DNA of 29,022 bases, from NCBI GenBank assembly GCA_019057865.1, contig JAHLWP010000042.1, positions 1 through 29,022 of the forward strand, given 5' to 3'. Of this stretch, positions 85 through 2,275 are shown piece after piece (within the stretch, counting starts at the first letter, position 1; every line of letters begins with the position of its first letter). The position numbers and the translations under genes were made by a program. This DNA is from Promethearchaeota archaeon (GTDB lineage Archaea; Asgardarchaeota; Lokiarchaeia; Sigyniarchaeales; SOKP01). Under the pieces are notes generated by a model. That model had not been told where the DNA came from. It made no database searches and saw only the letters and a list, made by a program, of their open reading frames with translations.

Positions 85-546
85 TTACAATAATCTCATA
101 AATCTTCGAATTTGTGATTGAATGAGAAGTAATTGAATATTCCTTGCTCCACCGATGACTTCTTCTATTTTACTTACATCCATTAACTCATCAACAGGTG
201 TATTATCGGTTACTGACACTCCGCCCATATGTTGCTGAACTTCATAACAGATATCATGTGTTAGTTTAGATACATAATACTTACCTTGAGACGAGATAGA
301 GGCAACCCATTTTTCTGCTTCTTTTGAAGATTTTTCAGCGAATAAAATCTTATCATCATAAACAGTAGCAGCTTGTAAAGCTAATGATGTCGCCGCTGTA
401 GCCTTACTTAATAAGTCTGCTAATCCATATCCCACTCCCTGGTATCTAATTACGGGCTTACCAAACTGTTGTCTTAAATTAGTGTAAATTATTCCATTAA
501 TCAATCCTGCCCAGCAGATACCGATTCCTGAACCCATTATAAGCAC
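85..546 (-). CDS. Acyl-CoA dehydrogenase, C-terminal helical part of an interrupted gene
   Basis: RQQFGKPVIRYQGV (R.QFG.PI..FQ motif), VQQHMGGVSV (Q..GG.G) and EEVIGGARNIQ. The listed GTG start lies inside the 44-nt insert. Confidence 0.85.
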   Translation of the reverse strand: MLIMGSGIGICWAGLINGIIYTNLRQQFGKPVIRYQGVGYGLADLLSKATAATSLALQAATVYDDKILFAEKSSKEAEKWVASISSQGKYYVSKLTHDICYEVQQHMGGVSVTDNTPVDELMDVSKIEEVIGGARNIQLLLIQSQIRRFMRLL

Positions 547-585
547 GGTGCGGAATTCGCAACTTAATTTTTTTAACTCATTATA
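535..585. other. 44-nt insertion (37-nt core plus one copy of the 7-bp direct repeat CATTATA) interrupting the acyl-CoA dehydrogenase
   Basis: CATTATA at 535-541 and 579-585. Deleting 44 nt joins the two ORFs in frame as ...VPERLSIMGSGIGICWAG... Internal hairpin TGCG-GAATT-CGCA at 549-561. Confidence 0.85.
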
Positions 586-1388
586 CTTAAGCGTTCAGGA
601 ACTAATCCCTCAAAGAGTCTTGTATATCCGAGTCCGTCATCTGCGAGTACGTATTCTTTTGGAACTTTAACATTATCCAATATTGTATGTGCAATATGAA
701 CTCGAGGAACAGAATTAATCTTCAATCGTTCAGTTTTTACACCAAATTCACGAGCAATCATTCCTTGAACCATTGTATCTCTTGGATTACCTGTATCATA
801 AACGCCATAACAGCAGAAATAATCCGCTTTAGGTCCATTTGTAGTATAAACTTTTTCTCCATTATAGATAACCCCTTCATTTGTTTTTGTACATCTTGTT
901 GTCAGATTTACTGCATCAGAACCTCTCTCAGGTTCTGTTATTCCAATACAGCCAACTTTTTGCCCCGAAAGTAGTTCATCTTGAACTTTATATATTGTAT
1001 CTCCAGTACCTCCATAATGATAGTAATGAAAGGTAGGATTAGCACATAGAATTCCGCTTGCAACTCGTCCTAATTCTAATTGAGGGTCTAAAATAGAAAT
1101 ATGAGTACCTAGTAAAATTTCTTTTTTCATTCCATACGGTTTAAAGTCCTTCCACTCATTAATCCTTTGTAAATATCCATTTTTCCCTAATTCAGGAAAG
1201 AGAACATACACATCTTTAGATTTATCAATTTTTGGATGTAACTCTATACAAAATTGTTGCAATTCCTCACAATATTTCCGTTCTTCTTCATTTAACATTG
1301 GAAAAACATTGTCATTGAATATTTTGAAGATATTTTCCAATGACATTTTTGCAAGAATTTCATCGTTGATAATTTTCTCTTGAAACAT
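573..1388 (-). CDS. Acyl-CoA dehydrogenase, N-terminal and middle domains of an interrupted gene (full gene 85..1388, 419 aa after removing the insert)
   Basis: GCIGITEPERGSD (FAD-binding TEP..GSD), YNGEKVYTTNG (NG.K.W.TNG), LDNVKVPKEYVL, GLGY...ERL. The TAA stop is supplied by the insert. Confidence 0.9.
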   Translation of the reverse strand: MFQEKIINDEILAKMSLENIFKIFNDNVFPMLNEEERKYCEELQQFCIELHPKIDKSKDVYVLFPELGKNGYLQRINEWKDFKPYGMKKEILLGTHISILDPQLELGRVASGILCANPTFHYYHYGGTGDTIYKVQDELLSGQKVGCIGITEPERGSDAVNLTTRCTKTNEGVIYNGEKVYTTNGPKADYFCCYGVYDTGNPRDTMVQGMIAREFGVKTERLKINSVPRVHIAHTILDNVKVPKEYVLADDGLGYTRLFEGLVPERLSIMS

Positions 1389-1510
1389 TTTTTCGTCAAT
1401 TTTAATAGTGTTTTTTATAATTTGAAAGAAAATATATTAATTAGTCTAAATTTTTTATTGCAATTAAATTTTTGATATTGATAAAAATAAGTTAAAACTA
1501 AAAAAAAGAT

Positions 1511-2275
1511 TTAATTTTTAGTATCTACAGTTTCGATTATTTTACCATCTCGCATTTTTAGTATTCTTTCAGCAAGAGCACCAACCATAGGGTCGTGGCT
1601 TACCATTAAAATCGTTTGATCAAGCTCCAAATTAAGTTCTCGCAATAATTTAACAATCTCCATCCCCTTTTTAGTATCAAGTTCGCCTGTCGGTTCATCA
1701 GCAATTAATATAGAAGGTTCATTACATAATGCTCGTGCAATTGCAACTCTTTGTTGTTCTCCACCTGAAAGCTCAGATGGGAGGTGATCTTTCTTGTCAC
1801 TTAGACCTACAAGATCGAGGAATTTATTAGCATTTCTTTCTATTTCCTGTTTAGTCCTAGCTGCAAATAACATTGGTAGTTCAACATTTTCATAAGCTGA
1901 AAGAACGGGTACTAAATTATAAAACTGAAATATGAATCCTATTTCCTTGAGTCTTAAATTTGTCCGTTGTTTATCATCCATATGAGCTATATTTGTTCTA
2001 TTGATATATACAGCACCACTTGTGGGATTGTCGAGAGCTCCAATCATATTTAAAAGTGTAGTTTTTCCGGAACCTGAAGGTCCCATAACTGATACAAATT
2101 CACCCTTCTTAATATCTATACTAACACCATTTAAGGCTCTAATTTCAATCCCTTCGGTTATATTATAAATTTTAGTTAAATCAAAAGTTTGAATCATCGA
2201 ATCAGGGTCTAGTTCATAATCTTTTGGCTCCTGAAATACTAAACCTTGTTGTTTACTCTTTTTGGCTTTTCTCAT
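1511..2275 (-). CDS. ABC transporter ATP-binding subunit, LolD/MacB family
   Basis: Walker A GPSGSGKTT, IGFIFQFYNL Q-loop, LSGGEQQRVAIARAL signature, ILIADEPTG Walker B, VSHD H-loop; GAGG upstream. Confidence 0.95.
   Translation of the reverse strand: MRKAKKSKQQGLVFQEPKDYELDPDSMIQTFDLTKIYNITEGIEIRALNGVSIDIKKGEFVSVMGPSGSGKTTLLNMIGALDNPTSGAVYINRTNIAHMDDKQRTNLRLKEIGFIFQFYNLVPVLSAYENVELPMLFAARTKQEIERNANKFLDLVGLSDKKDHLPSELSGGEQQRVAIARALCNEPSILIADEPTGELDTKKGMEIVKLLRELNLELDQTILMVSHDPMVGALAERILKMRDGKIIETVDTKN

What the first reader, a model, noticed from the sequence alone, without database searches (positions are those of the whole stretch)
525..601. Removable 44-nt structured insert just after the catalytic Glu of an acyl-CoA dehydrogenase: candidate mRNA mini-intron, ribosomal bypass element or mobile-element scar
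Seen: the minus strand reads CCT GAA CGC TTA AGT ATA ATG [AGT TAA AAAAATTAAGTTGCGAATTCCGCACCGTGCTT ATA ATG] GGT TCA GGA. The bracket is 44 nt, bounded by the direct repeat TATAATG (extending to 10/11: TATAATGAGTT vs TATAATGGGTT). Removing it gives an intact 419-aa enzyme (VPERLSIMGSGIG) with no other lesion. The insert has an immediate stop, an A7 run and a GC-rich hairpin (TGCG-AATTC-CGCA). The two coding flanks form a perfect 9-bp inverted repeat (TTCCTGAAC 525-533 / GTTCAGGAA 593-601), and UAAGUAU can pair with GUGCUUA, bringing the junctions together. Established: archaeal introns are cut by EndA at bulge-helix-bulge motifs (e.g. crenarchaeal cbf5); T4 gene 60 and yeast mitochondrial byps use matched take-off/landing codons, a blocking codon and a hairpin over similar lengths; a 7-bp duplication is also typical of transposon target duplications and tyrosine-recombinase overlaps. 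Inference: any of these could apply. An AAU at each junction would give an in-frame splice, but the central helix is 7-8 bp instead of the canonical 4, so this is not a textbook BHB.
Basis: partly seen in the sequence, partly recalled or inferred. Interest (0 to 1): 0.85.

Follow-up and report, generated by a model that had tools for sequence, protein, structure and literature searches.

The report
tRNA-type mini-intron in Asgard dehydrogenase gene
The 44 extra bases that break this acyl-CoA dehydrogenase gene of an Asgard archaeon are most likely a small tRNA-type (bulge-helix-bulge) intron; relatives carry matching inserts at the same spot, and this copy seems to have arrived recently by recombination, but no RNA data show the splicing.

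Summary
A 44-nt insert breaks an otherwise intact 419-aa acyl-CoA dehydrogenase gene, and removing it restores exact collinearity with 19 uninterrupted same-genus orthologues.

It is not a random lesion. Orthologues in at least three other Promethearchaeota lineages carry homologous inserts of 43, 33 and 31 nt at exactly the same site. All fit the archaeal bulge-helix-bulge (BHB) geometry: a 4-bp central helix, two 3-nt bulges, and cuts that restore the frame.

- Seven intron base pairs show compensatory double changes.
- Host genes are under strong purifying selection (dN/dS about 0.04-0.07).
- Nine synonymous exon positions that build the exon half of the motif are fixed in all intron bearers.
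- The genome encodes two EndA paralogues and RtcB, and its acs and rnhB genes carry similar 30-33-nt inserts.

An intronless allele is 99% identical outside a tract of about 170 nt centred on the insert, which is 80% identical (p = 4e-18). This suggests recent gain by gene conversion. A sister species keeps intron-type flanks without the intron.

Bypass, frameshift and transposon-scar readings are not supported.

Caveats: no RNA or read data could be obtained, this copy has a competing fold, and an assembly chimera is not excluded. This scan had already noted similar mini-introns in this genome and in other Asgard genomes.

The parts
583..1388 (-). Exon 1 of the acyl-CoA dehydrogenase gene (ATG at 1386-1388; ends ...TTA AGT AT)
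   Evidence: ORF list and Pfam Acyl-CoA_dh_M. Collinear with 19 orthologues. The splice register is shared with the L043, L049 and L055 homologues.
539..582 (-). Predicted 44-nt BHB-type intron (AAUGAG...GUGCUUAU). Unspliced reading hits UAA at 573-575.
   Evidence: BHB scan. Homologous inserts at the identical site. Covariance-model alignment and pair counts.
85..538 (-). Exon 2 (begins A ATG GGT TCA GGA; stop TAA at 85-87)
   Evidence: Pfam Acyl-CoA_dh_1. Collinear with orthologues.
593..601 (-). 5' arm of the outer exon-exon helix (UUCCUGAAC)
   Evidence: Perfect 9-bp complement of 525-533. Pairs are kept in 8 intron-bearing sequences, and synonymous sites are fixed in the 7 intron-bearing orthologues besides the window and variable in intronless orthologues.
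525..533 (-). 3' arm of the outer exon-exon helix (GUUCAGGAA)
   Evidence: As above.
585..588 (-). Central-helix 5' strand (AAGU, last exon-1 bases before the bulge)
   Evidence: Pairs 4/4 with GCUU 541-544. The second pair covaries: A-U here, G-C in L055 and L049, G-U in most 33-nt copies.
541..544 (-). Central-helix 3' strand (GCUU, inside the intron)
582..584 (-). 5' bulge A-U|A, with the predicted 5' cut between 583 and 582
   Evidence: Geometry checked against acs intron 1 of the same genome, a canonical BHB. Same position in all homologues.
538..540 (-). 3' bulge A-U|A, with the predicted 3' cut between 539 and 538
545..581 (-). Intron helix region. It comprises stem AUG(A)G 577-581 with CCGU 545-548, a 15-nt A-rich bulge 562-576, and the apical hairpin UGCG-AAUUC-CGCA 549-561.
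   Evidence: All 4 pairs of the lower stem and 3 of 4 pairs of the apical hairpin show changes on both sides among homologues. In the 33- and 31-nt forms the bulge is only 3 nt.
454..666 (-). Mosaic tract around the intron. It is 80% identical to the otherwise 99%-identical intronless allele P0001.
   Evidence: 35 of 54 differences fall in 169 coding nt, binomial p = 3.8e-18.
142..238 (-). Second, smaller mosaic tract relative to the intronless allele (12 third-position differences)
   Evidence: p = 7e-9.

Best explanation
The insert is a small archaeal bulge-helix-bulge (tRNA-type) intron inside the coding sequence of an acyl-CoA dehydrogenase mRNA.

In the pre-mRNA, exon bases UUCCUGAAC...AAGU pair with exon 2 (GUUCAGGAA) and with the intron's 3' end (GCUU). 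This leaves two A-U-A bulges on opposite strands, 4 bp apart. The intron's own stem carries an apical hairpin and a 15-nt A-rich bulge.

Inferred steps: the splicing endonuclease (two EndA paralogues, probably an (alpha-beta)2 enzyme that tolerates relaxed motifs) cuts in both bulges, and RtcB joins ...AGU AU|A AUG GGU.... This restores the 419-aa frame. Unspliced message yields a 271-aa fragment that ends at UAA.

Shown: the anatomy, the homologous inserts at the same site, the covariation, selection on host genes, and the enzymes' genes. Inferred: the cleavage and ligation themselves.

This copy probably entered the lineage recently by homologous recombination. A tract of about 170 nt would have carried both the intron and the exon half of its splice motif.
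For: 1. Removing 44 nt restores exact collinearity with 19 intact orthologues.
2. Orthologues P0108 (at least 9 contigs), P0112 and others are split at the same residue. Their inserts are 33, 31 and 43 nt, with cut sites identical to register 583|582 and 539|538 here.
3. All fit H1 - 4-bp helix - 3-nt bulges - intron helix. The window copy has 4/4 central pairs.
4. A covariance model aligns all 8 sequences. 97.4% of cells are paired, 7 pairs change on both sides, 0 of 500 shuffles reach this, and slid partners give 32-50% paired.
5. Insert lengths of 31, 33, 43 and 44 nt all block translation: each has an in-frame stop 2-3 codons after the 5' cut, and three of the four also shift the frame.
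6. Intron-bearing host genes differ at saturated synonymous sites (pS 0.5-0.85) but have pN of 0.04-0.16. dN/dS is 0.04-0.07 in both exons where it can be computed, and there are no other lesions.
7. Nine synonymous exon positions that build the exon part of the motif are fixed 7/7 in the other intron-bearing orthologues, and the alternative states are fixed 17-18/18 in intronless genus members. The window carries the intron-bearer states.
8. The genome has two EndA-domain genes and RtcB.
9. Its acs and rnhB genes carry 30-33-nt inserts with the same geometry.
10. Recent gain: the window gene is 99.2-99.5% identical to the intronless allele P0001 outside coding positions 720-895 and 80% inside (p = 4e-18). 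It sits as P0001's sister inside an otherwise intronless clade.
Against: In this copy the BHB fold is not the minimum-energy fold (-15.0 against -22.7 kcal/mol). In the 43-, 33- and 31-nt homologues the minimum-energy fold keeps the same helices and the 5' bulge.

The exon helix next to the core is weak. One pair is followed by U-U and G-G mismatches before the 9-bp stem, and the intron stem has only 3 pairs plus 1 after a bulged A. The motif is therefore relaxed rather than canonical.

The gene is one of about 13 acyl-CoA dehydrogenase-like loci in the genome, so its loss might be tolerated.

Covariation rests on only four independent intron types, and the alignment was fitted to the model.
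Confidence: 0.72

Rival explanations
1. Intron by descent but dead in this genome. The 44-nt copy derives from the BHB intron family, but it is no longer spliced, or only poorly. Its expanded A-rich bulge and weakened stem would be the cause, making this allele a very recent pseudogene.
For: The BHB fold is 7.7 kcal/mol less stable than a competing fold in this copy only. The lower intron stem has an A-C mismatch or bulged A. About 12 other acyl-CoA dehydrogenase-like loci could cover the function. No other record of this allele was found, although records of the window's own genome may be left out of those searches.
Against: The central helix is 4/4 and both bulges are intact. The 43-nt homologue L055 has the same long bulge in a gene with an intact frame. 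There is no second lesion in 1260 coding nt. Other inserts in this genome that must be removed (acs introns 4 and 5, rnhB) have equally relaxed or weaker motifs.
Confidence: 0.15
2. Assembly chimera. The contig joins a P0001-like backbone with a short stretch from a co-occurring, more distant intron-bearing population. The intron would then be real but would not belong to this allele, and the 'conversion tract' would be an artefact.
For: The genome is an 87-contig assembly with 5% estimated contamination. The gene lies at the very start of contig C24. There are two separate divergent tracts in a 99%-identical backbone. Reads could not be examined.
Against: A graph switch into and out of a sequence about 20% divergent, twice, needs long shared words at four boundaries. 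Natural recombination gives the same pattern and is independently suggested by L002, which has intron-type flanks without an intron. Both frames continue perfectly across all boundaries.
Confidence: 0.08
3. Translational bypass (T4 gene 60 type) or programmed frameshifting. In this reading the insert is read through or hopped over during translation.
For: In this copy only: matched AUA AUG codons 44 nt apart, a stop one codon after the first, and a hairpin in the gap.
Against: The 33- and 31-nt homologues lack matched take-off and landing codons and lack the direct repeat. What is conserved, with compensatory changes, is a set of helices that place two bulges 4 bp apart. The 33-nt form is in frame with an internal UAA, so no frameshift can rescue it.
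Confidence: 0.02
4. Scar of a transposon or MITE, or a random insertion with a 7-bp target duplication.
For: TATAATG flanks the 37-nt core.
Against: The core is unique in the genome even with 6 mismatches allowed, and its 22-nt centre has no exact match in the genome and metagenome collections. It has no terminal inverted repeats. Homologues at the same site lack the duplication. The repeat coincides with the bulge plus the first helix bases on both sides of a pseudo-symmetric motif.
Confidence: 0.01

Closest known systems
BHB intron in the cbf5 (pseudouridine synthase) pre-mRNA of Crenarchaeota (Desulfurococcales, Sulfolobales; Yokobori et al. 2009, PMC2738675)
   Same: Both are short introns (cbf5: 16-44 bp) inside an archaeal protein-coding sequence. 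Both have a bulge-helix-bulge motif built partly from exon sequence and encode no protein. Both disrupt the frame and so must be removed. Both show a patchy distribution read as gain and loss, in hosts with heteromeric splicing endonucleases of relaxed specificity.
   Different: The host is an Asgard (Promethearchaeota) archaeon and the gene is a metabolic enzyme. The intron occurs in several length forms at one site. Presence or absence differs between 99%-identical alleles and is associated with a recombination tract. Splicing has not been shown here, whereas it was shown by RT-PCR for cbf5.
Archaeal tRNA introns, including the abundant non-canonical tRNA introns of Asgard archaea (bioRxiv 10.64898/2026.10.13.758758; PMC11291895)
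   Same: Same predicted motif and enzymes (EndA, RtcB), similar sizes, repeated gains, and two EndA paralogues consistent with an (alpha-beta)2 enzyme.
   Different: The substrate is an mRNA coding region rather than a tRNA. The exon half of the motif is constrained by codons as well.
Other ~30-nt inserts in protein genes of this same genome (acs, rnhB)
   Same: Same geometry, A-rich bulges, frame-restoring cut sites and relaxed outer helices.
   Different: This one is longer (44 against 30-33 nt) because of a 15-nt A-rich bulge in the intron stem. It is also absent from all 19 same-genus orthologues examined.
T4 gene 60 translational bypass element
   Same: Gap of similar length, a stop near the take-off site, and a hairpin. 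Matched codons occur in this copy only.
   Different: The matched codons are not conserved in the homologous inserts. The conserved features are BHB helices, and no nascent-peptide signal was examined.

Membership tests
Archaeal BHB intron (EndA/RtcB-spliced) | [quoted passage not shown] | tested here: met
   AAGU (585-588) pairs with GCUU (541-544) at 4/4, with bulges A-U|A on both strands. The same layout holds in the 43- and 33-nt homologues at 4/4 and in the 31-nt homologue at 3/4.
Archaeal BHB intron (EndA/RtcB-spliced) | Flanking helices on both sides of the core (h and h') | tested here: inconclusive
   Intron side: 3 pairs, a bulged A, 1 pair, then a 4-bp hairpin. Exon side: 1 pair, U-U, 1 pair, G-G, then 9 perfect pairs. 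This is a relaxed motif, comparable to acs introns 4 and 5 and rnhB in the same genome.
Archaeal BHB intron (EndA/RtcB-spliced) | Cuts at the symmetric bulge positions restore an uninterrupted, orthologue-collinear frame | tested here: met
   The join ...AGU AU|A AUG GGU... gives LSIMGSG as in 19 orthologues. The same cut positions restore the frame in all four intron types.
Archaeal BHB intron (EndA/RtcB-spliced) | Structure conserved with compensatory changes among homologues | tested here: met
   97.4% of cells are paired, 7 pairs change on both sides, 0 of 500 shuffles reach this, and slid controls give 32-50%. Caveats: only four intron types, and the alignment was fitted to the model.
Archaeal BHB intron (EndA/RtcB-spliced) | Host encodes the splicing endonuclease and RtcB ligase | tested here: met
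   Two PF01974 loci (C71:81890-82114, C69:38574-38822) and one PF01139 locus (C75:110910-112217), all above the curated cut-offs.
Archaeal BHB intron (EndA/RtcB-spliced) | Excision observed in RNA (spliced junction, released or circular intron) | not testable with these tools
Translational bypass (T4 gene 60 type) | Matched take-off and landing codons conserved across homologues | tested here: not met
   Present only in the window copy (AUA AUG twice) and absent from the 33- and 31-nt homologues.
Transposon / MITE insertion with target-site duplication | Multiple copies at unrelated loci, and a duplication at each insertion | tested here: not met
   There is a single copy in the 4.26-Mb genome even with 6 mismatches allowed, and the 22-nt centre of the core has no exact match in the public collections. 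Homologues lack the repeat.
Programmed ribosomal frameshift | A single frame change before the stop restores the protein | tested here: not met
   Insert lengths of 31, 33, 43 and 44 nt give different frame offsets. The 33-nt form is in frame with an internal UAA. Read-through would add 10-15 residues to a motif that is invariant in orthologues.

The most novel reading that the evidence does not exclude
BHB mini-introns of Asgard protein genes spread between lineages by short-tract homologous recombination. The tract carries the intron together with the recoded exon bases that form the other half of its splice motif, so a new host allele becomes splice-competent in one step. This locus would capture all three states: gain (window allele against the 99%-identical intronless P0001), long-term maintenance (the 33-nt form, nearly invariant in hosts with saturated synonymous divergence), and precise loss (L002 keeps intron-type flanks without an intron).
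Probability: 0.45. Interest if true: 0.8.

Novelty: new member of a known kind. Interest (0 to 1): 0.62.

Why it matters
In the papers I could search, endonuclease-spliced introns inside archaeal coding sequences are documented for one gene, cbf5 of Crenarchaeota. For Asgard archaea only tRNA introns are described.

This locus adds an ordinary metabolic gene in the archaeal group closest to eukaryotes. It also offers something unusual: an intron-bearing allele and an intronless allele that are 99% identical apart from a short divergent tract around the intron. That makes the mechanism of intron gain and loss directly testable by recombination analysis, population sequencing and RT-PCR.

It also shows that part of the coding sequence is constrained at synonymous sites by an RNA motif.

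For annotation, such genes are currently called as two truncated proteins of 270 and 150 aa.

Tried and rejected
- **Mobile family.** A fuzzy search of the 37-nt core and the hairpin in the whole genome found only the locus itself. Exact 22-nt scans of genome contigs and metagenome contigs found nothing.
- **Exact-product look-up** of the 271-aa fragment: not on record.
- **Genome-wide BHB scan.** My numpy scans combined BHB geometry with an ORF-restoration filter. They were swamped by chance hits in this 29% GC genome and recovered only a few convincing cases, such as acs intron 1. I therefore give no genome-wide count of my own.
- **MAFFT alignment of the inserts** misaligned the apical hairpin of the 33-nt form. 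I replaced it with a covariance-model alignment.
- **150-aa C-terminal products P0123, P0127 and P0130** turned out to be intronless genes cut by contig ends.
- **A paralogue flagged with internal stops** (C41:20909-21649) is simply two adjacent genes.
- **Rfam** found no family in window 400-750, and ARAGORN found no tRNA in the window.
- **RNAfold z-score** of the local region is not significant (-0.79). Single-sequence folding alone would not have identified the element.
Full report
**Observation**

On the minus strand of window 85-1388 lies an acyl-CoA dehydrogenase gene in two pieces: 271 aa with Acyl-CoA_dh_M, and about 150 aa with Acyl-CoA_dh_1. The first frame ends at AGT TAA and the second resumes 44 nt later.

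Deleting 44 nt gives a 419-aa protein. The window is the whole of contig C24 of an 87-contig, 4.26-Mb, 29% GC genome, and the gene sits at the contig start.

**Orthologues**

A search of 40 related genomes found 19 same-genus orthologues at 81-93% amino-acid identity. All are uninterrupted, and all read ...LFEGLVPERL(S/A)IMGSG(I/V)GIC... across the junction. The joined product is therefore exactly collinear.

The insert core is unique in the own genome with up to 6 mismatches allowed, and its 22-nt centre has no exact match in the genome and metagenome collections. At this point a recent lesion seemed the most likely reading.

**Context from the scan, tested here**

Earlier notes of this scan state that this genome has many ~30-nt BHB-like inserts in protein genes. 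I treated these as leads and checked two of them.

- The acs gene (C82, minus strand) has five inserts of 30-33 nt, and rnhB (C75) has one of 30 nt inside DEAGRG.
- Each can be removed at positions that fit the archaeal BHB layout: exon helix, 4-bp helix, bulge cut after its second base, intron helix, and the mirror image on the 3' side.
- Quality ranges from canonical (acs intron 1: 4/4 central pairs, 5-bp and 10-bp flanking helices) to relaxed (acs introns 4 and 5, rnhB: 3/4 central pairs, 0-2 bp exon helix).

The genome has two EndA-domain genes and one RtcB. Two paralogues are what a recent preprint reports for 44 of 60 Asgard genomes and reads as an (alpha-beta)2 enzyme. My own genome-wide scans were too noisy to give a count.

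**The decisive result**

A protein search with the N-terminal piece returned three kinds of hit:

- an uninterrupted 419-aa allele, P0001, at 98% amino-acid identity;
- many intact orthologues;
- two products of exactly 270 aa: P0108 (14 members, at least 9 contigs from several samples) and P0112 (an NCBI MAG).

In the contigs of the 270-aa products the C-terminal 150 aa follow directly. Those genes carry inserts of 33 nt and 31 nt at the same place as here.

A pattern scan for the exon flanks with a gap of 24-54 nt found further hosts: E44_bin85, bin12, DZ3S.305, SDBT01123420 and a JGI contig. One of them has a 43-nt insert.

In all of them exon 1 ends ...UUA(A/G)GUAU and exon 2 begins (A/U)AUGGGUUCAGGA. 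For the window this is the register with cuts at 583|582 and 539|538. My blind BHB scan had already ranked it as the only collinear register with 4/4 central pairs plus a flanking pair on the exon side and three on the intron side.

**Anatomy**

The four types share one architecture:

- an outer exon-exon helix (UUCCUGAAC/GUUCAGGAA, reached after one pair and two mismatches);
- a central helix, A(A/G)GU with GC(U/C)U (ACCA in the 31-nt form, 3/4);
- 3-nt bulges on both strands;
- an intron stem of 4-5 bp;
- a 5' bulge of 3 nt in the 33- and 31-nt forms, and 15 nt and A-rich in the 43- and 44-nt forms;
- an apical 4-5-bp hairpin.

The window's intron is thus the long form of a family, not an orphan. 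Its sequence is clearly homologous to the 43-nt form and to the 33-nt form, sharing GCUU, xGCx-AxUUC-xGCx and UUAAG.

A covariance model built from the two long forms aligned all eight sequences at 49-108 bits. On that alignment:

- 97.4% of cells are standard pairs.
- Seven pairs change on both sides: all four of the intron stem and three of four in the hairpin.
- No shuffle of 500 reaches the observed values.
- Sliding the partners gives 32-50% paired.

Two caveats apply: the alignment is fitted to the model, and there are only four independent types.

Rfam has no match.

**The host genes are alive**

Between intron-bearing hosts, synonymous sites are saturated or nearly so (pS 0.52-0.85), while pN is 0.04-0.16. 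dN/dS is 0.04-0.07 where it can be computed, and it is alike in both exons. No host has another lesion.

All four insert lengths block translation. Each has a stop 2-3 codons after the 5' cut, and three of them also shift the frame. These genes can therefore only function if the insert is removed from the RNA.

Nine synonymous positions in the 21 nt around the splice site are fixed 7/7 in the other intron-bearing orthologues, and the alternative states are fixed 17-18/18 in the intronless genus members. They involve Arg CGN against AGR, Leu UUA against CUN, Ser/Gly (A/G)GU against Ser UCN, and Ser UCA against AGY. The window carries the intron-bearer states. These are the bases that build the exon half of the motif.

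**Recent gain by recombination**

Against the intronless allele P0001 (L050-L052), identity by coding position is:

| Coding positions | Identity to P0001 |
|---|---|
| 0-720 | 99.2% |
| 720-895 | 80.0% |
| 780-835 (55-nt core) | 69% |
| 895-1095 | 99.5% |
| 1095-1210 | 89.6% |

Thirty-five of the 54 differences lie in 169 nt around the intron (p = 3.8e-18). A second cluster has p = 7e-9.

A tree built without the tract puts the window gene as sister of P0001 inside the otherwise intronless genus clade. The 33- and 31-nt hosts fall on the other side.

I used the next relative, L002, as a reference for polarity. P0001 matches L002 at 15 of the 23 differing sites in the outer parts of the tract, and the window matches it at 6. 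The window allele therefore most likely carries the foreign DNA.

In the core, however, L002 itself has the intron-type states without an intron, and the model still finds its exon hairpin at 22.7 bits. This looks like the footprint of a precise loss.

More than one exchange has evidently happened at this site. No donor was found: the best tract identity is 80-83%.

The 33-nt intron differs at only 0-2 positions among hosts whose synonymous sites are saturated. This points either to lateral spread or to sequence-specific constraint, and I could not separate the two.

**Weak points**

- No reads or RNA could be examined. Neither splicing nor the assembly of the mosaic tract is verified.
- In this copy the BHB fold costs 7.7 kcal/mol relative to a competing fold that uses the A-rich bulge. 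In the other three types the minimum-energy fold keeps the same helices and the 5' bulge.
- The gene is one of about 13 acyl-CoA dehydrogenase-like loci, so an inactive allele could persist for a while.

**Other readings**

Bypass and frameshifting are not supported. The matched codons and the direct repeat are private to this copy, and the 33-nt form is in frame with a stop. A transposon scar is not supported either.

**Comparison with what is known**

The closest published case is the cbf5 pre-mRNA intron of Crenarchaeota. It is 16-44 bp, has a relaxed BHB cut by a heteromeric endonuclease, and shows gain in an ancestor with later losses, possibly via spliced RNA (PMC2738675).

Searches of the paper library found only tRNA introns described for Asgard archaea.

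I file this as a new member of that kind. All defining features I could test are met except a strong exon-proximal helix. The excision itself remains untested.

**Catalytic glutamate**

That the interrupted site lies just after the likely catalytic Glu rests on my own knowledge of the family. The reasoning is that the PERL motif resembles the helix-G glutamate of isovaleryl-CoA dehydrogenase, and that the usual C-terminal YEG position reads IGG here. It was not tested.

Noticed in passing
L002 (G012:C90), locus 1488-1526 minus strand: The closest species-level orthologue has no intron but carries the intron-type synonymous states in the exon flanks (CGT TTA AGT AT|T ATG GGT TCA). It has three changes that weaken the 9-bp exon helix. 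This looks like the footprint of a precise intron loss followed by relaxed constraint.
   Followed up: partly
G000 C82:1-1423 and C39:23990-24628 (minus strand): The acetyl-CoA synthetase gene is interrupted by five 30-33-nt inserts that fit BHB geometry. It is also split over two contig ends.
   Followed up: partly
G000 C75:81539-82168 (minus strand): The single RNase HII gene has a 30-nt insert inside the DEAGRG motif. It has AG|A and AA|A bulges but only 3/4 central pairs and a 1-bp in-register exon helix.
   Followed up: partly
window 142-238 (minus strand): A second cluster of 12 third-position differences from the 99%-identical intronless allele (p = 7e-9). This may be a second recombination tract in the same gene.
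   Followed up: partly
L043, L054, L056, L058, L059 (33-nt intron): The 33-nt intron differs at only 0-2 positions, including its unpaired bases, among hosts whose synonymous sites are saturated. Either it spreads laterally or its sequence is constrained beyond pairing.
   Followed up: partly
L049:4965-5702, L050:5785-6260, L062:1312-2052: An ERCC4-domain nuclease gene lies 1-2 kb downstream of this dehydrogenase in both intron-bearing and intronless loci. An earlier scan note links a nuclease gene to intron spread at a look-alike locus. The window's contig ends before that position.
   Followed up: no
G000 C71:81890-82114 and C69:38574-38822: There are two separate EndA catalytic-domain genes with open frames of about 210 aa. 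This is consistent with a two-subunit splicing endonuclease of relaxed specificity.
   Followed up: no
public protein records P0108 / P0112 and their 150-aa neighbours: Intron-bearing orthologues are annotated in public data as two separate truncated proteins of 270 aa and 150 aa.
   Followed up: yes
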